Shown: positions 5,604-39,227 of the stretch, one piece after another
Numbering within the stretch: the stretch's first letter is position 1
Layout: the number at the start of each line of letters is the position of its first letter
Origin: a phage
Length of the DNA stretch: 52,735 nt
Sequence record: PZ662386.1
Direction: 5' to 3' (one strand)
Translations under genes and position numbers: made by a program
The notes under the pieces: generated by a model
The model's database searches: none
Told to the model about the DNA's origin: nothing
What the model saw: the letters and a program-made list of their open reading frames with translations, nothing else

Positions 5604-5624
5604 GGCGCAATTAATAGTTGCGCC
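5604..5624 (+). other. perfect 7-bp stem-loop (GGCGCAA / TTGCGCC) between decoration and capsid genes
   Basis: Inverted repeat with 7-nt loop seen directly; no T-run follows, so possibly a processing or stability element. Confidence 0.3.
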
Positions 5625-5650
5625 TCACCAAACAATATGGATTAAATTAC

Positions 5651-6658
5651 ATGCCAAAGATGATTAAACTGGCGGACGGTTCTGAATTCGAACTGAACGA
5701 CGCTATCACCCGTATTCAGGATTCTGGCACTGTTGTCCTGAATGACGACGATGCAGTATTCTTTCAACGCCAGCTTGAGTACATTGAAGCTAAAACTTAT
5801 GACACCCTGTATCCAGAATTGGAAGCTCGTGCAGCTTTCGGTGTGGATACTACTGGTGGTGCTGGCGTAAACACTCTGACCTACCGTTCTTACAACCATG
5901 TTGGTAAAGCACAGGTAATTAACGCTCGTGCAACCGACCTGCCGAAGTCCAGCATTTCTGGTAAAGAATACAGTATCCCTGTTAAATCTGTTGGTACTGC
6001 ATTCGACTACGATATTGATGAAGTGGCATCCGCTGCTGTTACTGGCCTCCCGCTGGAAACTCGTAAAGCAAATGCTGCTATTCGTGGTTATGAGCAGTAT
6101 GTTAACTCTGCTGCATGGTACGGCGATAAAGCTAACGGATTTGTTGGCTTCTTCGAAAACCCAGACATCACCAAAGCAACTGTTGCTCAGGGTGCTGGCG
6201 GTTCTACCAAGTGGGCCGAGAAGACCCCGACCGAAGTTATTGCTGACCTGACTGCTGCTGTGTCTGCAATGTATGCTTCTACTCTGAAAATCATGCGCCC
6301 AGACGAAATCTGGATGCCTGTTGAGCATGAGCAGTACATCTTCAACACTGCACGTTCTGAGCAGTCTGATAAGACGATTGGTCAATTCTTCATTGACAAC
6401 AACCAGTTCATCAACTCCCGTGACAAAATCAAGGGTCTGAACGCAATCAAAGGCCACGGCGATGCTGGTTCCGATTGCTTCGTCGTTGTTTGCCGCAATG
6501 CAATGGGCAACCGTACTTTCCGTCTGCGTGAACCTCTGCCGCTGACCTGGCAACCAGTACAGCTTCATGGTCTGGTTTATGAAGTTCCTGGCCGTGGTCG
6601 TTTCGCTGGCTTCCAAGCGATGTATCCGGCAGCAATCTCCATCAACTCCGGCATCTGA
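5651..6658 (+). CDS. major capsid protein (lambda gpE-like)
   Basis: 335-aa ORF after scaffold and decoration genes, very biased high-expression codon usage; alternative upstream start at 5618. Confidence 0.75.
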   Translation: MPKMIKLADGSEFELNDAITRIQDSGTVVLNDDDAVFFQRQLEYIEAKTYDTLYPELEARAAFGVDTTGGAGVNTLTYRSYNHVGKAQVINARATDLPKSSISGKEYSIPVKSVGTAFDYDIDEVASAAVTGLPLETRKANAAIRGYEQYVNSAAWYGDKANGFVGFFENPDITKATVAQGAGGSTKWAEKTPTEVIADLTAAVSAMYASTLKIMRPDEIWMPVEHEQYIFNTARSEQSDKTIGQFFIDNNQFINSRDKIKGLNAIKGHGDAGSDCFVVVCRNAMGNRTFRLREPLPLTWQPVQLHGLVYEVPGRGRFAGFQAMYPAAISINSGI

Positions 6659-6664
6659 TAAATA

Positions 6665-6684
6665 GGGCGGGAATATTCTCGCCC
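6665..6684 (+). terminator. stem-loop after capsid gene (possible attenuator/terminator)
   Basis: GGGCGGG...CTCGCCC hairpin 7 nt after the capsid stop; weak T-run. Confidence 0.3.
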
Positions 6685-6704
6685 ATAACTTAAGAGAAAT
6701 AGTA

Positions 6705-7145
6705 ATGCAGATTAAGAACAACGAATCACGCAACCTTCAATTCTTCTTCTATAAGAAGGGAAAGTCTGGCAAATCTGAACTGGACTTTGTTCACATTCCT
6801 GGTGGCGCAACTGTAGAAATCGACGATGAAATCTACAAATCTCTTACGGCATCTCTGACGGAAGTTGAAGAACTGCGCGAAGAAGTGGTTCCGCTTGATG
6901 ACGAGAATATCGGTGCTTCTGTTAAGACCGGTAAAGAAGCTCTTGTCATTAAAGAGTATTACAGCACTGGCAAAACTCGCAAAGTCAACCTGGTTAAAGA
7001 AGCAATCAAAGCTGGTTCTCTTACCATTGTTGAACGTGTGAAAGTTGGTATGCCTGACATTGATGCTATTCTGACTAAGAATGGTATTGATATTAAGGGT
7101 ATGCCAGAAGACGTTAAACTGGCACTCTACGATAAGTTGGCGTAA
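6705..7145 (+). CDS. hypothetical head-associated protein
   Basis: 146-aa ORF with RBS AAGAGAAAT; position between capsid and connector genes. Confidence 0.5.
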   Translation: MQIKNNESRNLQFFFYKKGKSGKSELDFVHIPGGATVEIDDEIYKSLTASLTEVEELREEVVPLDDENIGASVKTGKEALVIKEYYSTGKTRKVNLVKEAIKAGSLTIVERVKVGMPDIDAILTKNGIDIKGMPEDVKLALYDKLA

Positions 7146-8403: not shown

Positions 8404-9852
8404 ATGGCAATTCCAATTTCCGACATCATCCAGGTCAACATTGCGGTAAGTCCTAACGCTGTTGCCGTGGAAGGTTTTGGTCCTCTTCTGTTTCTGAGCA
8501 AGGAGTTTACTCCAGCCCCAGGCGAAGCTGTTCCTGTTCGTCAATATACCAGCATGGCTGCTGTATCTGCTGATTTCCCATCTGGTGAAATTTATCAAGC
8601 TGCTCTGGCATGGTATTCTCAGAAACCAACTCCAAAGTATTTCCTCGTAGGTGCTATCACCCATGAAGATGTTACTCTGGCAACTCCTGGTACTGTAACC
8701 GCATCTTCTGCTGCGACTCTGGAAACCATTACTGCGTTAACTAATGGTGTTCTGTCTATCAATATTAACGGCGTTGATAAGTCTACTGCACCAATCAACT
8801 TCTCGTCCGCAGACGATTTTGCTGCTGCTGCATCAATGCTTAATGCTGCATTTGTTGCTGCCGACATTCCTGCAACTGTTACGCAGACCACAGGCACTTT
8901 CAAAATCACTACCAACGAAACTGGCGTAAATTCCATCATTGGTAACGTGTACGGTTCTGCTGCTGCGGCATTTAAACTTGACTCTGCTTCAAGCCCTGTG
9001 CATGTTCAAGGTACTGATGAAGTATCTATCGGCACCGACTTGAATGCAATCTTGAACTCTACGTTCGACTTCTTCTTTGTTGCTATTGACCGCAAATACC
9101 GTGGCAGTGCTGAGGGTAATAACCAGATGACTGTTGCCAAGTGGGCAGAAGCAAACGGCAAAGTATTTGGTTGGGCTGATAGCGACCCGCAGATTCTGGT
9201 TCCTGGTGCTGAATCTAGCTTTAAGCGTGCCAAAGAGCAGAACCTCCAACGCACTCTGTTGGTGTATGATGCGTCTGATAATGGCGACGAGTATCCAGAA
9301 GTTTCTATCCTGGGTCGTGCATCGACCGTCAACTTCAACGTTGCAAACTCTTCGCTCGTTCTGGCATTTAAACAAGGTCCAGCTATCAAGACTGCTGACT
9401 TGTCCCCGAACCAGCTTGCTGCACTTGAGCGTGTGAACGGTAACGCATTCATCAACGTTGGCGGGAACACTATGTTCTACAACGGCAAGATGGCTGACGG
9501 CACTTGGTTCGATACCGTGCAGGGCGTTTCTTGGTTAACCTCCAAGATTCGTGCTAACGTGTTCAACCTGTTCTACACCTCCACTACCAAGATTCCTTGG
9601 ACGGACACTGGTGTTGCACTGGTGAACCAGCAAGTAACCCTGGCTCTGGAACTGGCAGTGACAAATGGTCTGATTGCCCCAGGTTACGACAATGAAGGCA
9701 ACTTCTATCCAGATGGCTACAAAGTCTTGTCTACCGACTTGGCTCTGATGCAATCTCAGAAAGGTGCTCGTATCTGGGAAGGCACTTCCTTCATTGCAAT
9801 TGGCTCTGGCGCATTGCAGGGTGCAGTTATCTCTGGCAACTTCGTTCAGTAA
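8404..9852 (+). CDS. tail sheath protein
   Basis: 482-aa ORF followed by 151-aa tube gene and frameshifted chaperone; size and order typical of contractile tails. Confidence 0.65.
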   Translation: MAIPISDIIQVNIAVSPNAVAVEGFGPLLFLSKEFTPAPGEAVPVRQYTSMAAVSADFPSGEIYQAALAWYSQKPTPKYFLVGAITHEDVTLATPGTVTASSAATLETITALTNGVLSININGVDKSTAPINFSSADDFAAAASMLNAAFVAADIPATVTQTTGTFKITTNETGVNSIIGNVYGSAAAAFKLDSASSPVHVQGTDEVSIGTDLNAILNSTFDFFFVAIDRKYRGSAEGNNQMTVAKWAEANGKVFGWADSDPQILVPGAESSFKRAKEQNLQRTLLVYDASDNGDEYPEVSILGRASTVNFNVANSSLVLAFKQGPAIKTADLSPNQLAALERVNGNAFINVGGNTMFYNGKMADGTWFDTVQGVSWLTSKIRANVFNLFYTSTTKIPWTDTGVALVNQQVTLALELAVTNGLIAPGYDNEGNFYPDGYKVLSTDLALMQSQKGARIWEGTSFIAIGSGALQGAVISGNFVQ

Positions 9853-9862
9853 GGTGCGATAA

Positions 9863-10318
9863 GTGAAACAATATTCTTTCTATAATACCGACCTCATTAT
9901 CGACGGTGCTCGTGTAGATGGTTTTACCTCTGGTAACTCTATCATCACTGCTCGTCGTAACGCACCTCAACACCTGCCTGTTATTGACGCGTATGGTAAG
10001 TTGGCTGTAGCTACTACGGCTGACTTATCTGGTACTATTACCTTCCCGCTTCTGCAAACCGCAGACTGGAACGAAATCCTGTACAGCCGTGCTCAGTTAT
10101 CTCAGGCAACTGGTCTGTCTGGCAACAAATCTCTGTGGCAACCGCTCCAGATTCAGATTGTTGACAAGATGGGTGATGTGCTGGTCAACGGTGTAAACGG
10201 CGCTATCTTGCAGCAACCTGCAATTCAGCGTGGTGTGTCCTTCACGTCTAACGTGTGGTCTATCTTTGTAGAGCGCCTCCAGATTAAGACTGGCTCTTAT
10301 CCGGAAATTGGCGTTTAA
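9863..10318 (+). CDS. tail tube protein
   Basis: 151-aa ORF after sheath, GTG start with AAGGTG RBS. Confidence 0.6.
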   Translation: MKQYSFYNTDLIIDGARVDGFTSGNSIITARRNAPQHLPVIDAYGKLAVATTADLSGTITFPLLQTADWNEILYSRAQLSQATGLSGNKSLWQPLQIQIVDKMGDVLVNGVNGAILQQPAIQRGVSFTSNVWSIFVERLQIKTGSYPEIGV

Positions 10319-10329
10319 TTGGAGTAAGT

Positions 10330-10788
10330 ATGGCTTGTGAATTGCTTCAACGTGAATTCACAAACTCCAAAGGCGAAACAGTGTTAGTCGTTGTTCGACA
10401 ATTGTCGGCTTCGGCTGCACTGTCTCTTCACGCGGAGTTGGTAAGCAAGTTAGGCTCACGAGTATTTCCATTCATCGAAGGTAAATATAACTTCGCTGAT
10501 ATTATATACTTGATGCAGCAAGTAGAGCATACCGTATTCACAGAGTTGTTTAAGCGTGTTATCAGCATGCACTCGTCCATAGATGGACAAGAAATCAAAC
10601 CTGCATTATATGATATGCAGTTTAATGGCGAATTGATGTTGTCTTGCCATGTCTTTGCTTTCGTGCTCGAAGCAAACTTCCTTGATTTTTTCAAGCAAGG
10701 GCTCGAAATCAACGAACAGAGACGATTGGAGGCGGAGGAAGCATCCAAGCTGGCAGAGCAGAAGAATTCGAGTCCGGAGACAGTTTAG
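10330..10788 (+). CDS. tail assembly chaperone (short form)
   Basis: 152-aa ORF between tube and tape measure; contains slippery TTTTTTC. Confidence 0.6.
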   Translation: MACELLQREFTNSKGETVLVVVRQLSASAALSLHAELVSKLGSRVFPFIEGKYNFADIIYLMQQVEHTVFTELFKRVISMHSSIDGQEIKPALYDMQFNGELMLSCHVFAFVLEANFLDFFKQGLEINEQRRLEAEEASKLAEQKNSSPETV

Positions 10789-10964
10789 TATCCCTGTTCC
10801 CCGACATAAAATATTTTCTGCATCGTCCTATAATCGAAGACAGTTCTCTCTGCAAGTTACGTGAATTGCAAGATGGAACCTATTCGATTATGGACTTATT
10901 GCTATTCCACGACATTCTCGATTTGCGTAAGAAACTCGAACCAGTAGATGAAGACAATGGCTAA
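10686..10964 (+). CDS. tail assembly chaperone -1 frameshift extension (long form)
   Basis: -1 frame is open from the slippery heptamer T_TTT_TTC (10686-10692), directly after a -1-frame stop (10683-10685), to 10964, overlapping the tape-measure start. Confidence 0.5.
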   Translation, partial: FFQARARNQRTETIGGGGSIQAGRAEEFESGDSLVSLFPDIKYFLHRPIIEDSSLCKLRELQDGTYSIMDLLLFHDILDLRKKLEPVDEDNG

Positions 10965-13900
10965 TCAAAAAGATTTAATGAAGTTGGGCGTTAATGAATT
11001 AATTGCATTAGGCTCTCAAAGCGGTCTGACTTTCCATGCTGGTATGAAGAAGTCGCACATGGTTCAACAACTTAGTGCGAGCGCTGCTTCGGGATGGCTG
11101 GATACAAATGCAGAATTAATGGGTGGGTCATTTGAAGATGACAGTTTAATTACTGAATCTTTGGGTGACTCTTCCATGATTTCAGACGCTGCCCACATTG
11201 CACAAGTGCTTTCAAGTGCTGGCTACACAGAAGCATTTCATGCAGCAATGAATGGCCCATCACACCATGTAGAAGCTGTTCACGCATACATGGAAAGGCT
11301 TGGCGTTAGCACAGATGATGTGTGGATGCACATGCCAAAGCCAAATCCGAACCTGCCGCAAGGTAGCTTCAACATGCTTAATGCCTATATGCGAGATACT
11401 TTGCAAGGGCATCAAGATATTATGCCAGAAATCCCAGGTCATTATGCTGGTGATATTATGGCTGAATACTCCACCAACCGTGGAAACATTGCTGACTCCT
11501 ACAACTACATGGCTCACATGTATGTTGACCGTGAGCAATACAGCAATCATGAACAATACGCAAGAGACATTAGTCGAGTTGCCAAACGTCTGGAACGAGA
11601 GTTACCCTCAGCCTTTAAGGAAGTTGGGTATACATCCGCATCTAATGTAGGAAATAAATCGGCCCCACATATTTCTTACATGGATACACTCCCTCAAATT
11701 GGTTCTCCTTCAATTGTTTCCGGCATTGCACATCCTCGTGCACCTCTTAACGCATCTGGACTTCCTCTTGGTTCTTATGGTTCTGGCATAAATCCAGAAT
11801 ACTCCCTCACTGCATCACTAACTGGTGGCACAGGTTGGAGCGAACCAAGCAAGGCTTTGTATTCTTCTATTAGTGAAGCTGTTAAATCTGCTGCCAAAGT
11901 CTATTCTGGCCCCAAAGGGATGCTGAATACTCGTCACGAAGTATCTGACCGTGACATGATTATGGATAGTGCAACACGCTACACGGATTTGGAAGAAGCC
12001 CGAAGCGGATACGAAAACCTTCGTTCTGAACTTGCAGATGAGCCAGCTTATTCTGCATCAAGTGTTCGAGCTATTCTCGAAAACACTTACGATAAAATGG
12101 ATGCCGAACCTATCAGCATTCCGAAGATGAAGGGAGCTTCACAGCGAGTCGATAAAGATTCGCGGTCAACATCTACAGATTTTACAGCACAACTTGGAGA
12201 GGCCACCAATTGGAACTCTGCAAGAATGCGTCGCGAGGAACTTGCGATTGCAAATATGGATAGTGCTGGATTCCGTGATGTATCAGACTATGGTACAGGA
12301 CGTTCCGAGTCCCCCGTCCGATTCCATGACTTAGAACAGGGTAGCCAAGAGTGGCTGGACTTCCGTAAAAATTATGACATAACTGGCTCAACTGTTGGAA
12401 CCTTCTTAGGAAACAACCCTTACACCCGACCTTGGGCTGGGATGATTGATAAGATTGGTCTATCTCGTAGTAAGGAGCACAGCGATTTCACCAAAAAGAT
12501 GTTCGCTGATGGTCACAGGACGGAAGAAGAAGCACGCGCTCGTGTTGGTAAGGAATTTGGATTCGATATCAAACAAACTGGCGCTATAACAAATGACAAC
12601 TATCCCGCCTTCATGTATTCTCCTGATGGTCTTATTGGGGATGATGCCATTTGGGAGCACAAGAATCCGCAAAGGGCTGGTAAGTTTGCTGACCTTCTTA
12701 AAGGCGACCATCCAGACTACATGGACCAAATTCAATTTGGTTTGCACGTTTCTGGTCGTTCTCGTGCTTTGTTCTCACAAACCATCAACGACGAAACACG
12801 TTCACAATGGATTGAGAAGGACGAAGGATGGTACGAAAGAAACCGAAATCGCCTTGATTCTGTGCTTGGCCGTCTTGATGCTGGGCGAGAGTTTGTTAGA
12901 AACAATGCTGGATTAGAACGAGAAGAGCTAATTGCTGGTGCAAGAAGTGCAATGACTGGTGATGGAATCTGGAAAGATATTCGTCAAAGGTCTACTCGTG
13001 GTTATTCTGCTGCTGCGGGTACTCCAGAAGACCCGTTTATTGGTTCACGTTCTTCGTACAATCCGACACCATCTTACTCCGACTACCAACCAAACTTTGT
13101 AATGCACGAGCAAAACTTTCCTGCAACCACTGGAAATGGTGACACCGGAAATGACTCGATGGCATTGTCTGTTAAGAAGGGTATTCTTGCTGCTCAGGAA
13201 GAAAACAGGCAGAAGGGTATTGGTGCAGATGCAGACTTTGATGGCAAAGCCGATTCAATGGGCTGGAACCGTGAAAGATTTGATGCTGCCAATGGCGGTG
13301 GATATTCTGGAGGTGGTGGTGGTGGTCGTGGCGGCAACTTCACAAGTGGTGGCAACTACTACGATGACTACGGTCGCATGGGTGGTTCGTTAGCTGCTGG
13401 CATTGCTGGTGGCAGTATTGGTTCAGCAACCAACGGAGTTATGCAAGCATTGATGGCAACTCCTGCTGGACGTATGGCTGCTGTAGGCATTGGTGCTATT
13501 CAGATTGGCAATGAAGCTGCTGAATACATGAATGACTTTATCGGCAACTCGCTTGATGCTGGTGTGATAAATCCTAATGAATACTCCTCTATGTCGCAAG
13601 GCTTGGAGATGTTGGGACTCAACTCACAACAAGCGGCACGTCTGAATCAAACCACACATAGTGCCTACAACACCATGCTTAACGGCGACCCCAGCGCCGC
13701 TGTGAACATCGTTCGCGGCAGTAGGGGATTGCTCACCATAGGTGATATTCGTGCGACAGGCGGCGACCCTGTGGCCCTGGCTCGCATCATGCAGGAAAGG
13801 GGCAAGGAGCGTGGCTGGAGTCAGGCCCGTATCGCAGGTGCTGCCGAAATGGCTGGCCTACAGGGTATGGCGAGAGCATACGACCGCACGGAATACAGCC

Positions 13901-14676
13901 ATGAGCAAGCTGGCTCGGTGGTAGAAGCGGGTAGAAACTCCGACTTTGCCGAAGGTATGGCCCAATCGGAAATGTTGCAGGGAAGCCGCGCACGGATGCT
14001 GCCGAGCTATAACGTGCCACAAAGTGTCTTATCTAATGGTGCTCCAATCTTCGAAGCTGGAAGTGCTGCACTTGACGGTGCTCGTACTGGATACAATCAG
14101 GCTCGTGAATTTGCTGGAAGTGTTTATGACTTTATCGCTCAGGAAGAATCCGGTGGTCGTGAATACAACAAGGATGGTTCTCGTGTAATAAGTCGCACTG
14201 GTGCTCGTGGGATAATGCAGATTCTACCTTCGACTGCCCGTGACCCAGGATTTGGAATCAGGCCGTCTGATGGAACTCCGGAAGATGATGCACGAGTTGG
14301 TCGTGAATACTATGACGCAATGTACAAGCGTTATGGCGACCACGAGAAGGCAATGGCTGCTTACACCGATGGTCCTGGCACTGTTGACAAAGCTGTTGAT
14401 AAGAATGGGTTGGATTGGCTTACTGCTGTTCCTGCACAGGCACAGAATCGCGTCAAAGCATTCCGTGAATGGTCCAAGTCTTCTAAATCTTTGGAAGAAG
14501 GTGCTACAGGGTTTACTCGCAATGGAATGTCATACGGTCAAACCCAAACTGTTGTTAATGTTAAGATTGATGCTAAGGTCAACAACCAGACTGCTTCTGC
14601 TACAGTTGCAATTCCTGGTGGTCAGACTGTGACTCAACAAATGAACATGAACAACGGTGCGCAACAAAGACGTTAA
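10948..14676 (+). CDS. tape-measure-position protein with lambda-exonuclease/YqaJ-like nuclease domain and C-terminal SLT lytic transglycosylase domain
   Basis: Follows the frameshifted chaperone; motifs QGSQEWLDFRKNYDITGS and SPDGLIGDDAIWEHKNP (lambda exo type), Gly-rich linker, SLT-like EESGG...GARGIMQI; Rho_N-like N-terminus. Confidence 0.7.
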   Translation: MKTMANQKDLMKLGVNELIALGSQSGLTFHAGMKKSHMVQQLSASAASGWLDTNAELMGGSFEDDSLITESLGDSSMISDAAHIAQVLSSAGYTEAFHAAMNGPSHHVEAVHAYMERLGVSTDDVWMHMPKPNPNLPQGSFNMLNAYMRDTLQGHQDIMPEIPGHYAGDIMAEYSTNRGNIADSYNYMAHMYVDREQYSNHEQYARDISRVAKRLERELPSAFKEVGYTSASNVGNKSAPHISYMDTLPQIGSPSIVSGIAHPRAPLNASGLPLGSYGSGINPEYSLTASLTGGTGWSEPSKALYSSISEAVKSAAKVYSGPKGMLNTRHEVSDRDMIMDSATRYTDLEEARSGYENLRSELADEPAYSASSVRAILENTYDKMDAEPISIPKMKGASQRVDKDSRSTSTDFTAQLGEATNWNSARMRREELAIANMDSAGFRDVSDYGTGRSESPVRFHDLEQGSQEWLDFRKNYDITGSTVGTFLGNNPYTRPWAGMIDKIGLSRSKEHSDFTKKMFADGHRTEEEARARVGKEFGFDIKQTGAITNDNYPAFMYSPDGLIGDDAIWEHKNPQRAGKFADLLKGDHPDYMDQIQFGLHVSGRSRALFSQTINDETRSQWIEKDEGWYERNRNRLDSVLGRLDAGREFVRNNAGLEREELIAGARSAMTGDGIWKDIRQRSTRGYSAAAGTPEDPFIGSRSSYNPTPSYSDYQPNFVMHEQNFPATTGNGDTGNDSMALSVKKGILAAQEENRQKGIGADADFDGKADSMGWNRERFDAANGGGYSGGGGGGRGGNFTSGGNYYDDYGRMGGSLAAGIAGGSIGSATNGVMQALMATPAGRMAAVGIGAIQIGNEAAEYMNDFIGNSLDAGVINPNEYSSMSQGLEMLGLNSQQAARLNQTTHSAYNTMLNGDPSAAVNIVRGSRGLLTIGDIRATGGDPVALARIMQERGKERGWSQARIAGAAEMAGLQGMARAYDRTEYSHEQAGSVVEAGRNSDFAEGMAQSEMLQGSRARMLPSYNVPQSVLSNGAPIFEAGSAALDGARTGYNQAREFAGSVYDFIAQEESGGREYNKDGSRVISRTGARGIMQILPSTARDPGFGIRPSDGTPEDDARVGREYYDAMYKRYGDHEKAMAAYTDGPGTVDKAVDKNGLDWLTAVPAQAQNRVKAFREWSKSSKSLEEGATGFTRNGMSYGQTQTVVNVKIDAKVNNQTASATVAIPGGQTVTQQMNMNNGAQQRR

Positions 14677-14748: not shown

Positions 14749-15858
14749 ATGCCGTGGCTACGCAGAGTTGAGGTAATAGTTTCACGTAAAGAAGACCCAA
14801 GCATTCGAACAATATTTAAATCACATCGTATTGATTTTGAAGTTCGTTCTACTGTTGGGTGGCCCGCCGATACAGCAAACATAACTCTGTTTAACTTGTC
14901 ATTAGAAGAAGTTAAGTTCCTCCAGGACAAGACCTACGGAGATATGTATATTGAAATTCGTGCAGGGTATGCAGAAGATGAGCGTTCGGACTCTGGTGGT
15001 GGAACCTCTAGTGGCGGTGTTAAGAAGTTTGGTCAAAAGGCCGAACAGAGCGACCGCGTAACAGTGTCTACATCACTACCAACCATCTTCTCTGGGATTA
15101 TTACAAACGCAGTTGGCTACAGAAAGCCTCCTGAACATGTAACACAATTGTTTTGTATTTCCAAGGCATATGGTGCATCCACTGATTTCAAACAGTTGAC
15201 TGCAATCAAGCCTGGAACCAAGCTCATTGATGCAATGCGCTCAATGTGTTCTGACTATGGATTCAATACCATCTCCACATTTGGTGTTGAAGATTCGGTC
15301 CTTGAAACAGTGATGCCTCGTGGGCGTGTGTTCCATGACACATTCTTAAACGAATTTCGTAACATGCTTGGCGAATACAATTTGTTGTACACTGTTACAA
15401 CTGGTGAAGTGCAAATCTTCCCAGATACCTTTGGTGATAAAGATGCTGTAAACAGAATGTCTAAAGACAGAGAGCCAGTCCAGCTGGATGAAGACTCTGT
15501 TATTGGCAACCCTGTTGCTGGAATCTGCACCTACACTTTAAATACATTCCTAAACCCATCTTTCCAACCAGGTATGATTCTTGATGTATCTCCTTTGCTC
15601 GGTAAGAAGTTGCTTGCTAACGGTGTAACTTCTGTCAATGGTGAAGGTATTGTTCTTAACACTGACCAGTCTGTATTCCGTTGGGCTGTGGAAGACAAAT
15701 ACTTCATCATGGAAGTTGTGCATAGAGGTTCAACTCACACAACCATTTATCAAACATCAATCACTGCAATCTTGGGTGGCAACACAATGATGGGTGGTAA
15801 GGAAGCTGCGTGGCAGGAAATGTATGCTAACAGTGGAATGGCAATGGAGTCATTTTAA
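14749..15858 (+). CDS. baseplate / tail protein (putative)
   Basis: 369-aa ORF directly after tape measure; Gly-rich segment; call by position. Confidence 0.45.
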   Translation: MPWLRRVEVIVSRKEDPSIRTIFKSHRIDFEVRSTVGWPADTANITLFNLSLEEVKFLQDKTYGDMYIEIRAGYAEDERSDSGGGTSSGGVKKFGQKAEQSDRVTVSTSLPTIFSGIITNAVGYRKPPEHVTQLFCISKAYGASTDFKQLTAIKPGTKLIDAMRSMCSDYGFNTISTFGVEDSVLETVMPRGRVFHDTFLNEFRNMLGEYNLLYTVTTGEVQIFPDTFGDKDAVNRMSKDREPVQLDEDSVIGNPVAGICTYTLNTFLNPSFQPGMILDVSPLLGKKLLANGVTSVNGEGIVLNTDQSVFRWAVEDKYFIMEVVHRGSTHTTIYQTSITAILGGNTMMGGKEAAWQEMYANSGMAMESF

Positions 15859-16745
15859 TGTCTATCTTTGATACCGACCTCATTGGTGGTGTGTCCTCTG
15901 GATTGAAGAATTTCAGCTACGGGCATCATCCATCTATTGTTATGTGGTCCAATGGACCTGCATCTCAGAAAGAAGAGGAGTCAGGACTGTTTGGTGGGTT
16001 TGCGAAATCTCTTGAGAGCTTGCCTATTGTTGGTGAATCTGCCGTCGAAAGTTTTAACTCCTTTAAATTCGATGCTATGGTTAGTGAAGAACACGCATCG
16101 GAAACAACTGTAACCAAGTTCCCCGTTAGTTCTGGGTTCCTGGTTAGCGACCATGTTATTAACCAGAACAGGGTACTTAAGTTAACCGCTGTTGCTGTCA
16201 ACATGCAGAACTCCTCCATGTGGACTGCATCTGTACAAGGTTTGTCTGTTGCTTCTGGTGCAATCTTCAATAGTCCGGTTATCCCAATTCTTGGTGGCAT
16301 TGCTGGTGGCGTTGCTTCTGCATTTGAAACAAGCAACCGAATCCAGTCTACCTACGATTTGTTTAACAGCTTCCGTGTTACGGGGCAGAAGTTATACATC
16401 TCCACCATTCTGGGGCCTTATTTGAATTGCGTAGTAACCTCAATCAAAACCAAACATGATAAAATGTCTTCTGCAATGTTGGCAGTTGAAATTATGTTTG
16501 AGGAATTGCAGACAGTTGATGAAGATGCTCTTGCCAGCGAAGCTCGTAAAGCAATGGAATCAATGTCTGACTACTCTGAATTTGCAAAGGTTGCTCAAAG
16601 TTTGGGGATGGGTGTTCTTGGAGGTGTTCCGCTTCCTGGACTTGGTGCTCTTGGCACCCTTCCGACCAAACAGTTATCCAACTTGAAAGGTAAGTTGAGT
16701 AAGCTGGCTTCTCCACTTTCTTCTATCAAGGGGCGTATCCTATGA
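15858..16745 (+). CDS. baseplate protein (putative)
   Basis: 295-aa ORF in baseplate block, start overlaps upstream stop. Confidence 0.4.
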   Translation: MSIFDTDLIGGVSSGLKNFSYGHHPSIVMWSNGPASQKEEESGLFGGFAKSLESLPIVGESAVESFNSFKFDAMVSEEHASETTVTKFPVSSGFLVSDHVINQNRVLKLTAVAVNMQNSSMWTASVQGLSVASGAIFNSPVIPILGGIAGGVASAFETSNRIQSTYDLFNSFRVTGQKLYISTILGPYLNCVVTSIKTKHDKMSSAMLAVEIMFEELQTVDEDALASEARKAMESMSDYSEFAKVAQSLGMGVLGGVPLPGLGALGTLPTKQLSNLKGKLSKLASPLSSIKGRIL

Positions 16746-19396: not shown

Positions 19397-20038
19397 ATGG
19401 CTGGTAAACATGGCTTAGATATGCTGCTTTCACAGTATGCACTATCGCCAAACCTTCGTAAGTATATTTCAATCTTCTTAGAAGAGTTTGCAGAAGTTAA
19501 ACAGGCCATGACTGACTCAGTTAAGTACAGATACTTAGCAGATTCGTTCGGAGTCATGGTTGACGACCTTGCGTATATTGTGGGAGCTTCTCGTGTAATA
19601 CAAGGTGCTGCGGCACTTGGGTACTTTGGCTTCTACGCCAACCCAGGTGCATTTCCTGCTGGCGATGACAACGACCCAGGTATTGGTGGTATTCTGAAAT
19701 CAGATTACGACAAAGACTCTGGGGACTTTGTTCGAACAGACGGGCAGTTAAAGGATGCAATACGTGCCCGAATCATTAAGATAACTGGCAACTGCACCAT
19801 TGAACAGCTTATCATGTATATTGAGTTGGTCGTAGGAAGGGAACTGAAACTCCAAATCGTAGAAGGGTTTCAGACAATGGACTACATTATTCATGAAGAG
19901 TTGTCTGTGGCTGAGAAAGTTCTCATGGCCTACATGCTCCCGAACTTTAAGCCTGTTGGAGTTAAGATTACCCTAAGAGATACTAAAGGTAACATTGCTC
20001 TGGTTTATGGTTCCAAAGATTATCCTCCGGAGAAATAA
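19397..20038 (+). CDS. baseplate / tail-fibre-associated protein (putative)
   Basis: 213-aa ORF in baseplate block. Confidence 0.4.
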   Translation: MAGKHGLDMLLSQYALSPNLRKYISIFLEEFAEVKQAMTDSVKYRYLADSFGVMVDDLAYIVGASRVIQGAAALGYFGFYANPGAFPAGDDNDPGIGGILKSDYDKDSGDFVRTDGQLKDAIRARIIKITGNCTIEQLIMYIELVVGRELKLQIVEGFQTMDYIIHEELSVAEKVLMAYMLPNFKPVGVKITLRDTKGNIALVYGSKDYPPEK

Positions 20039-21183
20039 TGACTCAACGTCTTAAGTTTAATTTTCCCTGGGCGCAAGATGGCGAAGTTAAAGACCCGGAC
20101 TTGGATACCACTGCGCCAAGTTTTATCGAAAACAGGTACGCCAATCTGGGCTGGGAAGCTGAAAAGCCTCCCAATGAATGGCAGAACTTCTTATCTCAAA
20201 TTAGTGATTTGAAGATTATATCTCTGCTGTTCAGTGGCATTGCTGAGTTTGATTCAAGTGTGACTTATCAAGTTGGTGCAGTATCTTCCCTCAATGGTGT
20301 TGTTCGTGTATACACACCCACAGGTTGGGAAGAAGTGATGGACCTCAAGAGGGTTGACTACCTTAATGACGTCAGTAACTTGAAGTCCCTCTACGATAAT
20401 CACTTGGCTGCAACCAATCCACATAAAGAAACTGTGGATACCATCACAGATAAAACTTATAGCAAAACTGATATAGATGATGCCTTTGGAAGCCCCACAG
20501 ACCCAAGGACCATAGTGTATCATAAGCTACAAACTGGTCGCGTACACCAAGAAACTCCACAACAGCTTGGAACTCTTCCAACATCCGGTGGCAAGTTTTC
20601 CGGACCTGTGTCACTGTTGAGTGGTATGAAGTTTGGAACAAACATCACAATTCAAATGAACCCAGGAAATGGGAGAATTGAGATGCGAGCAGGTAATAGG
20701 ATTCTATCCATTGATGCACTTGGCAATGTTCTGTGGAGCATAGTTGGTGGTGCGGAATATCCAGTGATGACAGAACTGAATTACTCAGAATTTCAGATTC
20801 GCTGGGGAAACAGGTTTGCACTTCCTACACCATATTTGCAAATGGACTTTGCGAGAAGCATTAATGATGGTTCATCTGTTCGTGACTGGACAATAACAAC
20901 CACAGGAACACCAGTGTTTCACCCTAGCGGTGGGTTGAAGATAGATGACAACACTGTCACGTTTTCCGGATTTAATATCACTATTCCGACAACCATAGTT
21001 GCACTCACCAGAAACTCTGCTGGCGCACTTGGGAGGGGCAACTCAGATGCTCCATCTGGAGGATATACGAGCCTAAACACCCTGCTTACAAACTTGGGTG
21101 TATCAGATGCTGCATACATTGTCAGTATTACTTGTTACCCAACACTTACCGCTTATCAGAAATCAATGTTAGTGAGGCCATAA
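20038..21183 (+). CDS. tail fibre / baseplate protein (putative)
   Basis: 381-aa ORF, RBS GGAGAAA. Confidence 0.4.
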   Translation: MTQRLKFNFPWAQDGEVKDPDLDTTAPSFIENRYANLGWEAEKPPNEWQNFLSQISDLKIISLLFSGIAEFDSSVTYQVGAVSSLNGVVRVYTPTGWEEVMDLKRVDYLNDVSNLKSLYDNHLAATNPHKETVDTITDKTYSKTDIDDAFGSPTDPRTIVYHKLQTGRVHQETPQQLGTLPTSGGKFSGPVSLLSGMKFGTNITIQMNPGNGRIEMRAGNRILSIDALGNVLWSIVGGAEYPVMTELNYSEFQIRWGNRFALPTPYLQMDFARSINDGSSVRDWTITTTGTPVFHPSGGLKIDDNTVTFSGFNITIPTTIVALTRNSAGALGRGNSDAPSGGYTSLNTLLTNLGVSDAAYIVSITCYPTLTAYQKSMLVRP

Positions 21184-22568
21184 TGGCAATTCGTCCTAAA
21201 CTGAACCGAGTCTGGACTTCAAACAACTCTGTCGCAAGACGTGACCCAGGGGATGAAAAATATCTCAAGGGTTGGGTTGCAGAGATTCCGACCTATCAGG
21301 TTCTTAACTACCTGCAATACAAGATTGACACCACAATGCTTGCACAAGCAGAGCGTGGAATCTTTGAGTGGGGAAATGATGTAAGTTATGGCGTTGGTAG
21401 TTTGGCTTGGGACGAAACAGACAAGACTATTTATGTTTGTACTGTCACCAGCCCTAACAAAACACTACGCCCAAGTGCAAACTCTGCACAATGGAGTCCA
21501 AGCTCCATCCAAGTTTCTCGTGTAAATTATGACTCAATTGTGGCAGCAATCAATGCACACATTGCAGACATAACTTCAAACCCGCACAAAGTAACTGCTG
21601 CACAAATTGGTGCATACAACAAGTCCGAACTTGATTCGATTGTTGCCAACTATCGTGCAATGGTACAGGCACACGTAACGGACTACAACAACCCGCACCA
21701 ACTTACTGCAACTCAGGTTGGTGCTGTTCCTGTAACTGGTGGCGCATATACTGGTGAAGTTACTTTCACAACTGTGTACCTAAATGATTCCAAAACTGCA
21801 CAGATTGTAAATGACGGTGGATTGTATCTTCGTAATGGAAGCTACTACCTTGGAATCAATGGAACCACAGGAAATCCAGAGGCAGGCACTGCTGCAAGTA
21901 AGTCGCGTATTGTAACGGAACTAAACTTCCCAGATGTTAAGGCAGCACAAGAGCCTGGGTATGCTCACCTGGAACCAACATTCCAAATGAACTTTATAAA
22001 CTCACTTAACATAGTGAGGGGTTCTGGAACAGTGTCTTCTACAGAAGGCATGGATATTCGATACGACCAAGCTAATGGTGGTGTGTTCCTGTTTGACCAG
22101 GGTGGCATTGGACATTCGATAAGCGGTAGCGACGAACTTGTAGCAACTGGTGAAAACGTGCCATTTACGATTGCATTTGACTACTACCCAAACAATCCGA
22201 TAGATTCAACATCCTGGCAGTTTACTCTGGGATTACTTGGGTATAAGGTATTGTTCCGAGTAAACAACAACATGTACCTAGAGATTAGGAACTCTTCTGG
22301 CTCTAACGTGCAAAGATGTGCCAACTCTTATGTTGTAACGCCATATACTTGGAACAGGATTGTTGCAACACATGACGGGACCACATACCGCCTTTATGTA
22401 AATGGTGTGCAGATTGCCGAAGAAGCTGGCGGATTTGCAACGCACAACAACTCTGCCAGTCGTAAGTTCTTTATGAACCTTGCTGCAAATGTCCAGAAAG
22501 CTGTCAGGTTCCGCGGATTTAGGCTCTGGCCGTACTCGCTCAGTGCCAAGCAAGTTTCAACTTTATAG
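21183..22568 (+). CDS. tail fibre protein with NPH-type fibre repeats and lectin-like C-terminal domain
   Basis: Repeats NPHKVTAAQIGA and NPHQLTATQVGA; C-terminal jelly-roll-like segment; ATG at 21183 with GTGAGG RBS (ORF-track start 21132 overlaps upstream gene). Confidence 0.65.
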   Translation: MAIRPKLNRVWTSNNSVARRDPGDEKYLKGWVAEIPTYQVLNYLQYKIDTTMLAQAERGIFEWGNDVSYGVGSLAWDETDKTIYVCTVTSPNKTLRPSANSAQWSPSSIQVSRVNYDSIVAAINAHIADITSNPHKVTAAQIGAYNKSELDSIVANYRAMVQAHVTDYNNPHQLTATQVGAVPVTGGAYTGEVTFTTVYLNDSKTAQIVNDGGLYLRNGSYYLGINGTTGNPEAGTAASKSRIVTELNFPDVKAAQEPGYAHLEPTFQMNFINSLNIVRGSGTVSSTEGMDIRYDQANGGVFLFDQGGIGHSISGSDELVATGENVPFTIAFDYYPNNPIDSTSWQFTLGLLGYKVLFRVNNNMYLEIRNSSGSNVQRCANSYVVTPYTWNRIVATHDGTTYRLYVNGVQIAEEAGGFATHNNSASRKFFMNLAANVQKAVRFRGFRLWPYSLSAKQVSTL

Positions 22569-22576
22569 GATTCAAA

Positions 22577-23617
22577 ATGGCTAAAGGTTATTCTTTAGAT
22601 GCACTAGTCAATGAGCACTACATGAAGTCTCGTACCAGCCTGGAGACTACAAACTTGAACACCCTCACGGGAATGGATAGCGTTGGTGTGTATTACCAAA
22701 ACTTCGATGGCTACGCCTCGACTGCAAACAGTTATCCAGCAGGTGCTCAGGCAGGAACCCTTGAGGTGTTGCCACACAATGCCAACAAATATGGCAGGGT
22801 GTTACAACGGTATACAACATATGGCACACTACGTTGTTGGATTCGTAGCCAGGGCTATGCCACAGAGAATGATGCGTTTACTCCGTGGACAGAGCTAATT
22901 AATGCCAACAACATCTACAATGCCATCTACCCAATCGGTATTGTCGTCCTGTTTGATAATGCCACCAACCCAAACAATGCCTTCACTGGAACTGTGTGGG
23001 AACAAGTCGTCGATGGTCGTGTCGCTCGTGCTGCAACTGGTCCGGAAGCTGGCACGGCTGATGGTCAGATTGGTTCGGTAGCTGGGTCTGATACTTGCAC
23101 TATTTCTGTGGCTAACATGCCAGGCCATACGCACGGAATGCAAAACCACACCCACGGTATTGCAGCCCACTCGCACACGATGGCCCACACTCACACCATC
23201 AACCACGACCACGGTGCTGTAACAACAAGTTCCAGCGGTGCTCATACACACTCCGTGTCCGGCACTGCTGCGAGTAATGGCAAACACACGCACACAGCCG
23301 GAACTGGCTACACTGGTGCAGGTAACTACATTGGTGCAGGTACTGGTACTGGCTTAGGTACGATGACCACAAACTCCGCAGGTGCGCATACTCACTCAGT
23401 GAGTGGAACTGCTGAGTCTTCTGGCGCTCATACGCACTCTGTAGACTTGCCAAACTTCACTGGTACAAGTGGTGGTTCTAGTGCAGGTAACACTGGTGGC
23501 ACTGCCCTGACCACTGGTGGCCCTAACAGTAACGAAACAACCTCAACTGGCAGTGGGACCGCACTCAATGTGCGCAACTCTTCACACTATTACGCCTTCT
23601 GGAAACGGGTGGCTTAA
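22577..23617 (+). CDS. tail fibre / receptor-binding protein with His-x-His repeats
   Basis: Repeated GAHTHSVSGTA units and HTHGMQNHTHGIAAHSH tract; Gly/Thr-rich. Confidence 0.6.
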   Translation: MAKGYSLDALVNEHYMKSRTSLETTNLNTLTGMDSVGVYYQNFDGYASTANSYPAGAQAGTLEVLPHNANKYGRVLQRYTTYGTLRCWIRSQGYATENDAFTPWTELINANNIYNAIYPIGIVVLFDNATNPNNAFTGTVWEQVVDGRVARAATGPEAGTADGQIGSVAGSDTCTISVANMPGHTHGMQNHTHGIAAHSHTMAHTHTINHDHGAVTTSSSGAHTHSVSGTAASNGKHTHTAGTGYTGAGNYIGAGTGTGLGTMTTNSAGAHTHSVSGTAESSGAHTHSVDLPNFTGTSGGSSAGNTGGTALTTGGPNSNETTSTGSGTALNVRNSSHYYAFWKRVA

Positions 23618-23625
23618 GGAAAACA

Positions 23626-23967
23626 ATGGAACGATTATCCATTCAGATGTTTGTGGACCTAATGCACCAATATGGCGTATGGCATGGATTGCTGGCTGGC
23701 CTGACGGCTTTAATCCGTGGGGCATACGAGAGTGAGGGTTTAAGCAAAGCGTTGCTGGATGCGACGCTATGCAGCCTAATCGGCCTGTTTGCATTTCAGG
23801 TCGCTGGCACATTTGAGACTTTCACGACTAACGTCACTATGCAGCTAGTATTGGCTATCGTGATTGGTGTCATCGGTGCAAACCTCATTATCACAACTGT
23901 CAGGGAAAGTTTCTCTGGCGCAATCAAACAACTTAATCCTTTGACGTGGTTCAAGAAGGCACGATGA
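23626..23967 (+). CDS. holin (lambda S-like)
   Basis: 113 aa, 2-3 predicted TM helices; segment LIRGAYESEGLSKALLDATLCSLIGLF resembles lambda S; immediately before endolysin. Confidence 0.7.
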   Translation: MERLSIQMFVDLMHQYGVWHGLLAGLTALIRGAYESEGLSKALLDATLCSLIGLFAFQVAGTFETFTTNVTMQLVLAIVIGVIGANLIITTVRESFSGAIKQLNPLTWFKKAR

Positions 23968-23984
23968 AATGATAAGGAACTCGA

Positions 23985-24539
23985 ATGCTATCATTCAAAG
24001 TTCTTGCACTTCTGACAGCTTTAGTTCACATCAACGCCCCAGCTTCGGTTGGGGCAGTGAATTCTGCTATTACAGATTTTGCAAGTCATTCTTATTTAAA
24101 TGGAAGTCTGAAACTATCTTCTTCACAACGCAAAGAGCTAGAATGCTATACTAAAGTTATCTGGTATGAAGCTCGCGGAGAAGACAAACATGGAAAGATT
24201 CTGGTAGCTAATGTCGTCCGTAATAGAACAGAGTTCGGGAAGCCATTCGCTAACACCGTTTGTGATGTTGTCTATCAACGCAATCAATTTGCATGGACAC
24301 GAGAAGCAAAGAAGAAGAATGCTCAATGGAAGCATGTAGCAAAGATTAATTATGCCACAGAACAACAACAAGTTCTGGACACCATTAATGTTGCAATCTC
24401 TTTTGTATTATTTAATCAACCCTCTGTCACCAAAGCAACCCACTTTTGTACAGCATCGGAGAAGTGCAACTTCAAGAATGTTAAAGGTTTGGGACGTTAT
24501 GGTGGCCATAAATTCTATGAGTATCTAGGAAATCTGTAA
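23985..24539 (+). CDS. endolysin, SleB-like cell-wall hydrolase with N-terminal signal peptide
   Basis: N-terminal hydrophobic signal ([18 protein letters not shown]); SleB/Hydrolase_2-like [29 protein letters not shown]. Confidence 0.75.
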
Positions 24540-33965: not shown

Positions 33966-34087
33966 TTGGGGATGCCCTATGAAAATTCTATGTTTTATAG
34001 GGCTACATAATTGGGAAATTTCACATGAAAACGATTATGTAACCTTTTGGGTTTGTAGGCATTGTTCAGCAATGCGTGAGGAATATC

Positions 34088-39226: not shown

Positions 39227-39227
39227 A

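What the first reader, a model, noticed from the sequence alone, without database searches (positions are those of the whole stretch)
10948..14676. Tape-measure-position protein carries a lambda-exonuclease/YqaJ-type nuclease domain plus an SLT domain
The 1242-aa ORF sits where a contractile-tail tape measure is expected, right after the frameshifted chaperone. It is not a plain helical ruler. It contains QGSQEWLDFRKNYDITGS and, about 95 residues later, SPDGLIGDDAIWEHKNP, which line up with the lambda exonuclease N-terminal motif and its catalytic D...E-x-K core. A Gly-rich low-complexity linker and a C-terminal SLT-like segment (EESGG...GARGIMQI) follow; the N-terminus resembles a Rho_N-like helix. 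An SLT domain in a tape measure is common; a PD-(D/E)xK exonuclease there is not something I recognise. It suggests a virion-delivered nuclease that could act on host or competitor DNA during entry.
Basis: partly seen in the sequence, partly recalled or inferred. Interest (0 to 1): 0.8.

Follow-up and report, generated by a model that had tools for sequence, protein, structure and literature searches.

The report
Phage tape-measure protein carrying an exonuclease
The protein that fills the tail tube of this E. coli phage, and is shot into the cell ahead of the DNA, carries a well-conserved, apparently active lambda-exonuclease-type DNA-end nuclease as well as the usual cell-wall-cutting domain; this combination is widespread in the phage's relatives but I found no paper describing it.

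Summary
Observation confirmed. ORF 10948-14676 (1242 aa) belongs to a phiEcoM-GJ1-like myophage (Chaseviridae, Carltongylesvirus). It follows the sheath, tube and a tail assembly chaperone with a conserved -1 frameshift site, which is the tape-measure slot.

Residues ~454-672 are a lambda-exonuclease/YqaJ domain:
- Pfam E 4e-13.
- AlphaFold pLDDT 88.

The catalytic D560/E570/K572 and the 5'-phosphate pocket (R473, S481, S558, Q594) are invariant in 59 homologues down to ~42% identity. The triad, R473 and Q594 also survive in far more distant tape-measure-slot proteins. This is the best-conserved part of the protein. Residues ~1056-1180 are an SLT transglycosylase.

Published virion mass spectrometry detected the 4HA13 homologue at 64-67% coverage. 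The "Rho_N-like" N-terminus is not supported by any profile.

The role is inferred: an exonuclease that needs dsDNA ends, delivered with a linear genome bearing ~3 kb terminal repeats, most plausibly resects the phage's own ends. Attack on foreign DNA is not excluded.

Databases call the protein tail fiber, tape measure or "putative endonuclease". The nuclease cassette is also exchanged between genera.

Novelty: new variant of a known kind. Interest 0.68.

The parts
10948..14676 (+). Tape-measure-slot gene, 1242 aa (probable true start ATG 10957 = M4)
   Evidence: ORF list. Full-length match to phrog_19855 'virion structural protein'. 88 full-length homologues of 1197-1284 aa. Homologues start at MAN....
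   Evidence: AF2 helices 4-11, 15-24, 35-47 with pLDDT 50-76. No Pfam hit at E<=10.
11182..12087 (+). aa 79-380: conserved, folded, mostly helical region of unknown family
   Evidence: AF2 pLDDT ~75-88. 7% invariant columns, including H128 and H165. No Pfam or PDB sequence hit.
12088..12306 (+). aa 381-453: predicted disordered linker
   Evidence: pLDDT <50. Lowest conservation in the N-terminal half.
12307..12963 (+). aa 454-672: lambda-exonuclease / YqaJ PD-(D/E)XK nuclease domain
12625..12663 (+). Catalytic core codons D560 (12625-12627), E570 (12655-12657), K572 (12661-12663)
   Evidence: They align to lambda exonuclease D119/E129/K131. Invariant in 59/59 homologues and in all distant tape-measure-slot proteins tested.
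12964..13518 (+). aa 673-857: Gly-rich, mostly disordered segment ending in the most hydrophobic stretch of the protein (aa ~830-853)
   Evidence: pLDDT <50 over 708-857. 20% Gly; Kyte-Doolittle maximum 1.2 at aa 835-853.
13519..13983 (+). aa 858-1012: conserved helical block (candidate ruler or membrane-conduit part)
   Evidence: pLDDT 83-90, helices 839-870 through 1001-1017. Identity 0.59-0.73 across the family. No family hit.
14113..14487 (+). aa 1056-1180: SLT lytic transglycosylase domain; catalytic E1067 at 14146-14148
   Evidence: Pfam PF01464 E 4.9e-13. PDB Slt70-type hits with the family profile. E1067-S1068 present in 58/59.
14488..14673 (+). aa 1181-1242: C-terminal tail, expected tail-tip anchor by analogy with Pa193
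   Evidence: pLDDT is low for 1180-1200, where the model ends. In Pa193 the last ~20 residues of the tape measure bind the tail tip as three copies (PMC11456595). This assignment is an inference.
10330..10963 (+). Tail assembly chaperone with -1 programmed frameshift (0 frame 10330-10788; slippery T-TTT-TTC 10686-10692; -1 frame to 10963)
   Evidence: Phage_TAC_15 E 2.9e-18. Frame analysis and conservation in L001 and L002.
8404..10318 (+). Tail sheath (8404-9852) and tail tube (9863-10318), upstream context
   Evidence: DUF3383/phrog_205 tail sheath E 2e-101; KPP10_Orf10/phrog_280.
14749..16745 (+). Baseplate hub (14749-15858) and Dit-like tail protein (15858-16745), downstream context
   Evidence: phrog_196 baseplate hub E 1.5e-51; Dit_like E 2.8e-20.

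Best explanation
This is the tail tape measure / ejection protein of a Chaseviridae myophage. It is built as beads on a string: an N-terminal helical region, a disordered linker, a lambda-exonuclease-family nuclease, a Gly-rich disordered stretch, a helical block, an SLT transglycosylase and a C-terminal anchor. SHOWN: the gene position; both domain identities; the intact and invariant active site and 5'-phosphate pocket; conservation of the fusion across a wide lineage; presence of a homologue in virions. INFERRED: three copies lie in the tail lumen with the C-terminus at the tip, as in Pa193. On infection the protein leaves C-terminus first, so SLT meets the peptidoglycan, the hydrophobic/helical part meets the inner membrane, and the nuclease-bearing N-terminal half, which sits nearest the DNA end, arrives last, with the genome. 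Inside the narrow tube the nuclease copies cannot form the toroidal trimer that the closest solved relatives (lambda exonuclease, LHK-Exo) use, so the enzyme would be off in the virion and could assemble from the three released copies in the cell. Its substrate is a 5'-phosphorylated dsDNA end. MOST LIKELY ROLE (the least certain step): 5'->3' resection of the phage's own ~3 kb direct terminal repeats immediately on entry, before any phage gene is expressed. That would give long 3' tails that can anneal for circle or concatemer formation and that are poor RecBCD entry sites.
For: Position: sheath-tube-TAC(-1 PRF)-gene-hub. No other ORF over 500 aa lies in the tail module. Nuclease identity. 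Residue map lambda R28/S35/S117/D119/E129/K131/Q157 = R473/S481/S558/D560/E570/K572/Q594, with the roles of these residues taken from PMC3239189. All are invariant in 59 homologues down to ~42% identity; the nuclease region has 22% invariant columns against 3-8% elsewhere. D/E/K, R473 and Q594 are kept in ten more distant tape-measure-slot proteins whose domains are 31-41% identical; S481 and S558 vary in a few of them. The same slot was confirmed in L002, L005, L006, L008 and Aeromonas phage phiA050. Virion presence: 4HA13 homologue at 64-67% coverage by LC-MS/MS. Three tape-measure copies with the C-terminus at the tip in a tail module sharing Pfam families (E217/Pa193 families). The closest solved relatives are toroidal trimers acting on dsDNA ends with 5'-phosphate preference. 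Chaseviridae genomes are linear and non-permuted with ~2.3-3 kb direct terminal repeats. The phage has a separate endolysin (Peptidase_M15_4, 36126-36542) and a separate FEN-type 5'-3' exonuclease (48803-49864), so neither passenger domain is simply the phage's only copy of a housekeeping function.
Against: No activity, oligomeric state, cellular location or substrate has been measured for any member. The MS coverage is not resolved to peptides, so retention of the nuclease domain in mature virions is probable rather than proven, and that preparation also contained a non-structural SSB. No single-strand annealing protein was recognised in the genome by Pfam or PHROGs, which weakens an annealing-based circularisation model unless host proteins or the phage SSB do the annealing. 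A processive exonuclease next to one's own genome is a hazard that needs a control mechanism I can only postulate. Sequence homology to a structurally validated tape measure (PB1 gp39 / Pa193 gp41) is limited to the SLT segment (hhalign probability 12%). The score against NCBIfam TIGR03033 (54 bits) is below that model's curated cutoff of 68.
Confidence: 0.55

Rival explanations
1. Offensive nuclease: the delivered domain degrades host, plasmid, prophage or co-infecting-phage DNA at entry.
For: Active site intact and strongly conserved. The protein is delivered by the virion. The central nuclease cassette is swapped between genera, with two ~60%-identical alleles among near-identical phages; that pattern is typical of modules that interact with host or competitor factors.
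Against: Lambda-exonuclease-type enzymes need dsDNA ends, and a circular chromosome or plasmid offers none until something cuts it. Only about three copies per virion would be delivered (by analogy). Nothing in the protein looks like an endonuclease that could make entry sites.
Confidence: 0.2
2. Producer-cell role: the nuclease works late in infection, while the newly made protein is still free in the cytoplasm. It would act as the phage's lambda-Exo/RecE-type recombination or concatemer-processing exonuclease, and its presence in the virion would be incidental.
For: No stand-alone YqaJ/RecE-type gene elsewhere in the genome. Many copies of the protein exist late in infection.
Against: The phage already has a T7 gp6-like FEN exonuclease. 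There is no obvious reason for a cytoplasmic recombination enzyme to be kept fused inside a tail-lumen protein in every lineage examined, including those where the flanks are unrecognisably diverged. No annealase partner was found.
Confidence: 0.15
3. Non-catalytic use: the domain serves only as a trimerisation or plug module or as a DNA-end clamp (a T4 gp2-like end protector), without cutting DNA.
For: The closest relatives are trimers, and tape measures are trimers. The 5'-phosphate pocket alone could hold a DNA end.
Against: The catalytic residues D560, E570 and K572 are invariant across every member examined. Purely structural domains normally lose such residues.
Confidence: 0.07
4. It is a tail fibre, as many database records and one paper say.
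For: Annotations 'tail fiber' or 'putative tail fiber' in DE15, SA91KD, flopper, ST32, GJ1 and the PYps phages; 'large main tail fiber protein' in PMC8762354.
Against: The slot directly after the frameshifted TAC. SLT and nuclease domains with helical and disordered segments and no fibre-like repeats or beta-structure. Separate fibre-sized genes lie downstream at 20038-25639. 4HA13, Mangalitsa, PP101 and PYps23T records call it a tape measure.
Confidence: 0.02

Closest known systems
Lambda exonuclease (Red-alpha) and LHK-Exo (PDB 1avq/3slp, 3syy); Pfam YqaJ PF09588
   Different: Those are free ~200-226 aa enzymes that pair with an annealase (Red-beta, LHK-Bet). Here the domain is embedded at aa ~454-672 of a 1242-aa virion protein, and no annealase was recognised in the genome. 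Trimer formation and activity are untested.
Tape measure proteins with passenger enzymatic domains, e.g. PB1 gp39 / Pa193 gp41 (SLT); mycobacteriophage TM4 tape measure with a peptidoglycan-hydrolase motif (cited in PMC11456595); T5 pb2 (my own knowledge)
   Same: Gene slot after the tail chaperone, virion protein, muralytic domain in the C-terminal half, related sheath/tube/TAC/baseplate families.
   Different: The known passengers act on the cell wall. This one also carries a DNA exonuclease plus a ~300-aa unknown N-terminal domain, and it is ~380 aa longer than the PB1/Pa193 tape measure. Sequence similarity to PB1 gp39 is limited to SLT.
Virion-delivered DNA-end or DNA-processing proteins (T4 gp2 end-protection protein; N4 virion RNA polymerase; podovirus ejection proteins such as T7 gp16 with SLT) - my own knowledge
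   Same: Proteins injected with or ahead of the genome that act before phage gene expression.
   Different: None of these is a PD-(D/E)XK exonuclease, and none resides in a contractile-tail tape measure. No homology was tested or claimed.
Herpesvirus / baculovirus alkaline nucleases and giant-virus YqaJ/R354 nucleases
   Different: Those are replication/recombination or MIMIVIRE enzymes, not parts of an injection device.

Membership tests
Lambda exonuclease / YqaJ family (PF09588, TIGR03033) | Profile match above the curated threshold | tested here: met
   Pfam 50.2 bits against a cutoff of 22, E 4.4e-13. Caveat: NCBIfam TIGR03033 gives E 1.7e-14 and 54.2 bits, but that model's curated cutoff is 68.05, so it is below that stricter threshold.
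Lambda exonuclease / YqaJ family (PF09588, TIGR03033) | PD-(D/E)XK catalytic Asp...Glu-x-Lys (lambda D119, E129, K131) | tested here: met
   D560, E570, K572 aligned with identical spacing. Invariant 59/59 and in all distant members.
Lambda exonuclease / YqaJ family (PF09588, TIGR03033) | 5'-phosphate binding pocket (lambda R28, S35, S117, Q157) | tested here: met
   R473, S481, S558, Q594. Pocket definition from PMC3239189. All four invariant in the 59-member family. R and Q are kept in all distant members; S481 and S558 vary in a few.
Lambda exonuclease / YqaJ family (PF09588, TIGR03033) | Lambda-exonuclease fold | tested here: met
Lambda exonuclease / YqaJ family (PF09588, TIGR03033) | Toroidal homotrimer; processive Mg2+-dependent 5'->3' dsDNA exonuclease activity | not testable with these tools
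   Only monomer prediction is available. Needs AF-multimer, SEC-MALS and nuclease assays.
Two-component (exonuclease + annealase) recombinase | [quoted passage not shown] | tested here: inconclusive
   None recognised by Pfam or PHROGs among mid-size non-structural ORFs, even at E<=1. Three proteins of unknown function (34076-34984, 39171-39902, 47928-48794) remain unassigned.
Tail tape measure protein | Gene lies directly after the tail assembly chaperone pair made by -1 frameshifting, between the tube and baseplate genes | tested here: met
   The same order is seen in 4HA13, L002, L005, L008 and phiA050.
Tail tape measure protein | Component of the virion | tested here: met
   From the literature, not from this phage: the 64%-identical 4HA13 homologue (P0023) was found by LC-MS/MS at 64-67% coverage (PMC9699118).
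Tail tape measure protein | Length proportional to tail length (~1.5 A per residue) | tested here: inconclusive
   1242 aa x 1.5 A = 186 nm, against reported uncontracted tails of 116-166 nm. Without the two globular enzyme domains (~345 aa) it is ~135 nm. This is a back-of-envelope figure, and no tail measurement exists for this isolate.
Tail tape measure protein | Homology to a structurally validated tape measure (Pa193 gp41 / PB1 gp39) | tested here: not met
   hhalign finds only the SLT segment, probability 12%, E 0.0024. No tape-measure PHROG or Pfam family hits. Tape measures are notoriously divergent, so this lowers confidence in homology, not in the role.
Tail tape measure protein | Three copies in the tail lumen, C-terminus at the tail tip | not testable with these tools
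   Known for Pa193. Needs cryo-EM of a Chaseviridae tail.
SLT lytic transglycosylase (PF01464) | Profile match above threshold and catalytic Glu in the E-S motif | tested here: met
   49.1 bits against 21.3. E1067-S1068 in 58/59 homologues. Slt70-type PDB hits.
Rho_N / HeH-type N-terminal motif | Profile match | tested here: not met
   No Pfam family for aa 1-455 at E<=10. Only a helix-loop-helix in a low-confidence part of the model.
Tail fibre (database annotation) | Fibre-like architecture or receptor-binding domain; position among the fibre genes | tested here: not met
   Helical and disordered segments plus two enzyme domains. Located in the tape-measure slot.

The most novel reading that the evidence does not exclude
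After ejection, the three tape-measure copies assemble their nuclease domains into a lambda-exonuclease-like toroid at the cytoplasmic end of the injection conduit, and the phage's own genome is threaded through it. The leading ~3 kb terminal repeat would then be resected as it enters. Genome entry would be mechanically coupled to making a recombination-ready, RecBCD-resistant 3' tail, with the unusually long terminal repeats of Chaseviridae serving as the sacrificial or annealing substrate.
Probability: 0.12. Interest if true: 0.9.

Novelty: new variant of a known kind. Interest (0 to 1): 0.68.

Why it matters
Tape measure proteins are known to carry cell-wall hydrolases, but I found no description of one carrying a DNA exonuclease in the literature I could search. 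If the domain is active and reaches the cytoplasm, this phage family brings a ready-made DNA-end processing enzyme into the cell before any gene is expressed. That raises several testable questions:
- How linear terminally redundant genomes are circularised or protected from RecBCD in the first seconds of infection.
- How a virion keeps a processive nuclease from destroying the genome packed next to it.
- What selective pressure drives exchange of the nuclease cassette between genera.

It also corrects a widespread mis-annotation ('tail fiber') in a phage group that is being developed for biocontrol of STEC, Yersinia, Erwinia and Pectobacterium.

Tried and rejected
- **Domain-only word-index search:** found just one hit. 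That is a limit of the index, not a biological result. The exhaustive search and the full-length search replaced it.
- **Tail-fibre reading:** rejected; see the rival explanations.
- **Rho_N-like N-terminus:** no profile support.
- **Homology to the PB1/Pa193 tape measure:** only the SLT segment aligns.
- **Unassigned regions (aa 1-455, 651-1060, 1168-1242):** searched against Pfam at E<=10, and against PDB sequences with the family profile; nothing found.
- **Terminal repeat in the window:** looked for a direct terminal repeat as a possible substrate; none is present, so the assembly holds one copy. Genome-end information therefore comes from the literature.
- **Annealase partner:** none recognised.
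- **Loss of the nuclease domain in some homologues:** considered because five entries lacked PF09588 in the precomputed Pfam list. Rejected: all of them keep the invariant catalytic residues in the alignment.
- **ORFs between the TAC and the YqaJ protein in L006:** tested as possible split-off pieces of this protein; no similarity.
- **Original phiEcoM-GJ1 paper (PMC2223254):** not held in the library.
- **Prior description in the literature:** searches for 'tape measure' + YqaJ / nuclease domain / Chaseviridae found none.


Full report
**What is there.** The window is essentially a complete genome of a phiEcoM-GJ1-like E. coli myophage. It is 97% identical at the nucleotide level to vB_EcoM_DE15 and 95-96% to flopper and ST32 (family Chaseviridae, subfamily Cleopatravirinae, genus Carltongylesvirus). 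It encodes a large terminase, portal, capsid and tail module, followed by a T7-like RNA polymerase, primase-helicase, PolA, a FEN-type 5'-3' exonuclease, a ligase and nucleotide-metabolism genes. The ORF in the finding is real: 10948-14676, + strand, 1242 aa. The family alignment suggests that translation starts three codons later, at ATG 10957.

**The slot.** Upstream lie the tail sheath (8404-9852), the tube (9863-10318) and a Phage_TAC_15 chaperone (10330-10788). Downstream lie the baseplate hub and a Dit-like protein.

The chaperone carries a textbook -1 slippery heptamer, T-TTT-TTC, at 10686-10692 and in the right phase. The -1 frame opens exactly at that site and stays open to 10963. The heptamer, its phase and the ~90-aa extension peptide are conserved in 4HA13 and in a very distant locus. 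No other ORF in the tail module exceeds 500 aa. By position, this is the tape measure gene. The common database label 'tail fiber' is wrong.

**The nuclease.**
- Pfam YqaJ covers aa 468-604 (E 4.4e-13, 50 bits against a cutoff of 22).
- PHROG RecE-like exonuclease families match at E 6e-18 to 1e-13.
- NCBIfam's 'lambda-exonuclease family protein' matches at E 1.7e-14, though below that model's strict cutoff.
- A profile of 59 family members finds LHK-Exo (E 9e-17) and lambda exonuclease (E 2e-7) in the PDB.
- An AlphaFold model of aa 420-700 is confident (pLDDT 87.9, pTM 0.83).

In native lambda-exonuclease numbering the alignment gives W24=W469, R28=R473, S35=S481, S117=S558, D119=D560, E129=E570, K131=K572, Y154=Y591 and Q157=Q594. 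D/E/K are the catalytic residues. R28/S35/S117/Q157 form the 5'-phosphate pocket that gives these enzymes their preference for 5'-phosphorylated dsDNA ends and their processivity (PMC3239189).

**Conservation.** I collected 88 full-length homologues (39-94% identity, 1197-1284 aa) and aligned 59 of them. Every residue listed above is invariant. The nuclease region has 22% invariant columns, against 3-8% in all other regions, so it is the most constrained part of the protein.

An exhaustive HMMER scan with the domain alone found further large proteins (962-1534 aa) whose embedded YqaJ domain is only 31-41% identical. All those examined keep D/E/K plus the Arg and Gln of the pocket. Every one whose context I could read sits after a Phage_TAC_15 chaperone, in a tail module with E217/Pa193-type sheath and baseplate genes: L002, L005, L006, L008 and Aeromonas phage phiA050. 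In one of them (P0176) only the nuclease domain is still recognisably related to this family.

So the nuclease has been kept intact in this slot through very deep divergence. That argues strongly for catalytic function.

**The rest of the protein.** The SLT domain (aa 1060-1153, E 4.9e-13) keeps its catalytic Glu-Ser in 58 of 59 members. A full-length model (aa 1-1200, mean pLDDT 66.6) shows beads on a string:
- aa 1-53: a small helical N-terminus.
- aa 79-380: a folded, mostly helical region of unknown family (pLDDT 75-88).
- aa 381-453: a disordered linker.
- aa 454-672: the nuclease.
- aa 673-857: a 20%-Gly disordered stretch that ends in the most hydrophobic segment of the protein.
- aa 858-1012: a conserved helical block.
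- aa 1056-1180: SLT.
- A short C-terminal tail.

The unassigned parts match no profile, even at E<=10.

**Virion evidence and the comparison with a validated tape measure.** LC-MS/MS of 4HA13 particles detected the 64%-identical homologue (128 kDa, labelled 'tail tape measure protein') at 64-67% sequence coverage (PMC9699118).

In Pa193, whose tail shares Pfam families with this lineage, the 858-aa tape measure is present in three copies with its C-terminus bound at the tail tip (PMC11456595). Its PB1 orthologue has an SLT domain but no YqaJ domain, and it resembles the present family only through SLT. SLT is therefore the ordinary passenger and the exonuclease is the unusual one.

**How it most likely works.** What is shown is a virion tape-measure-slot protein with an intact lambda-exonuclease-type active site. 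The rest is inferred.
- If the C-terminus is at the tip, the protein leaves C-terminus first. The domain order then matches the order of barriers: SLT meets the wall, the hydrophobic/helical block meets the membrane, and the nuclease and N-terminal domain reach the cytoplasm next to the DNA end.
- The closest solved relatives act as toroidal trimers. Such a ring cannot form inside a tail tube. Three released copies could form it, which would give a simple off/on switch.
- These enzymes need a dsDNA end. Chaseviridae genomes are linear and non-permuted with ~2.3-3 kb direct terminal repeats, so the entering genome is the obvious substrate.
- Resection of the repeats would give 3' tails for annealing (circle or concatemer formation), and those tails are also poor RecBCD substrates. 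That last point is from my own knowledge.

Against this reading, no annealase was recognised and nothing has been measured.

**An unexpected extra.** The nuclease-bearing centre of the gene is mosaic.
- Against phiEcoM-GJ1, the flanks of this protein are 87-90% identical, but aa 300-700 are 55% identical and the nuclease region 60%.
- GJ1's nuclease region is 99% identical to that of phage MLP1, whose flanks are only 66-77% identical to GJ1.
- This window's nuclease region is closest (79-83%) to the 4HA13/PYps group, whose flanks are 61-69% identical.

So the cassette is exchanged between genera while its active site stays fixed. That hints at selection from a host or competitor factor.

**Novelty.** The sequences are public. 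Automated Pfam labels exist, and one GenBank record says 'putative endonuclease'. I found no paper that notes or discusses a nuclease in a tape measure. The papers that mention the gene call it a tail fibre or a tape measure. I rate it a new variant of a known kind, namely a tape measure with a passenger enzyme, with interest 0.68. The architecture is solid and widespread, the biology is open, and the experiments are straightforward.

Noticed in passing
window 11850-13050 (aa ~300-700 of the ORF): Mosaic cassette. This central, nuclease-bearing segment is only 55-60% identical to phiEcoM-GJ1, while the flanks are 87-90% identical. GJ1's version is 99% identical to that of phage MLP1, a different lineage. 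At least two alleles circulate within one genus, with the catalytic residues unchanged.
   Followed up: partly
window 11182-12087 (aa 79-380): A conserved, confidently folded, mostly helical N-terminal domain with invariant His128 and His165 and no match in Pfam, PHROGs (other than its own family) or PDB sequences. Function unknown.
   Followed up: partly
window 10948-10959: Most homologues begin at the query's Met4 (MAN...), so the real start codon is probably ATG 10957, not 10948.
   Followed up: partly
window 10686-10963: -1 programmed frameshift site of the tail chaperone (T-TTT-TTC). The extension overlaps the start of the tape measure gene. The record annotations I read (4HA13) list the chaperone without a frameshift product.
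   Followed up: yes
window 1-52735: No direct terminal repeat is present in the window, although the family is reported to have ~3 kb repeats. The assembly evidently holds a single copy and starts just upstream of the terminase gene.
   Followed up: partly
L005 (GCA_002206365.2, contig NJFP02000002.1, 2817582-2835148): A distant relative of the whole tail module, including a 1188-aa YqaJ+SLT protein, lies inside a 4.8 Mb bacterial contig. That suggests a prophage, although Chaseviridae are described as strictly lytic.
   Followed up: no
L006 3869-6998: In this metagenomic relative, two extra ORFs (515 and 350 aa, unrelated to the present protein) plus a 109-aa ORF lie between the chaperone and a 962-aa YqaJ protein that lacks a recognisable SLT domain.
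   Followed up: partly
L007 3033-6812 (Aeromonas phage phiA050, PP763568.1): The deposited annotation fragments a continuous 1259-aa YqaJ+SLT ORF and labels only its last ~405 aa, as 'putative tail fiber'.
   Followed up: yes
PP952070.1 (Staphylococcus phage Pel53) and NC_079184.1 gp42: A record labelled as a Staphylococcus hyicus phage is 91% identical at the nucleotide level to these E. coli phages, so the host label is doubtful. In DE15 a 74-aa ORF in the replication module is annotated 'tail tape measure protein', which is almost certainly an error.
   Followed up: no
window 36126-36542: The phage has a separate Peptidase_M15_4 endolysin (E 1e-8). The SLT domain in the tape measure is therefore an entry enzyme, not the lysis enzyme.
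   Followed up: partly
window 5642-6733 (- strand): A 363-aa ORF runs antisense across the whole major capsid gene (5618-6658). It is probably a chance open frame; not examined.
   Followed up: no
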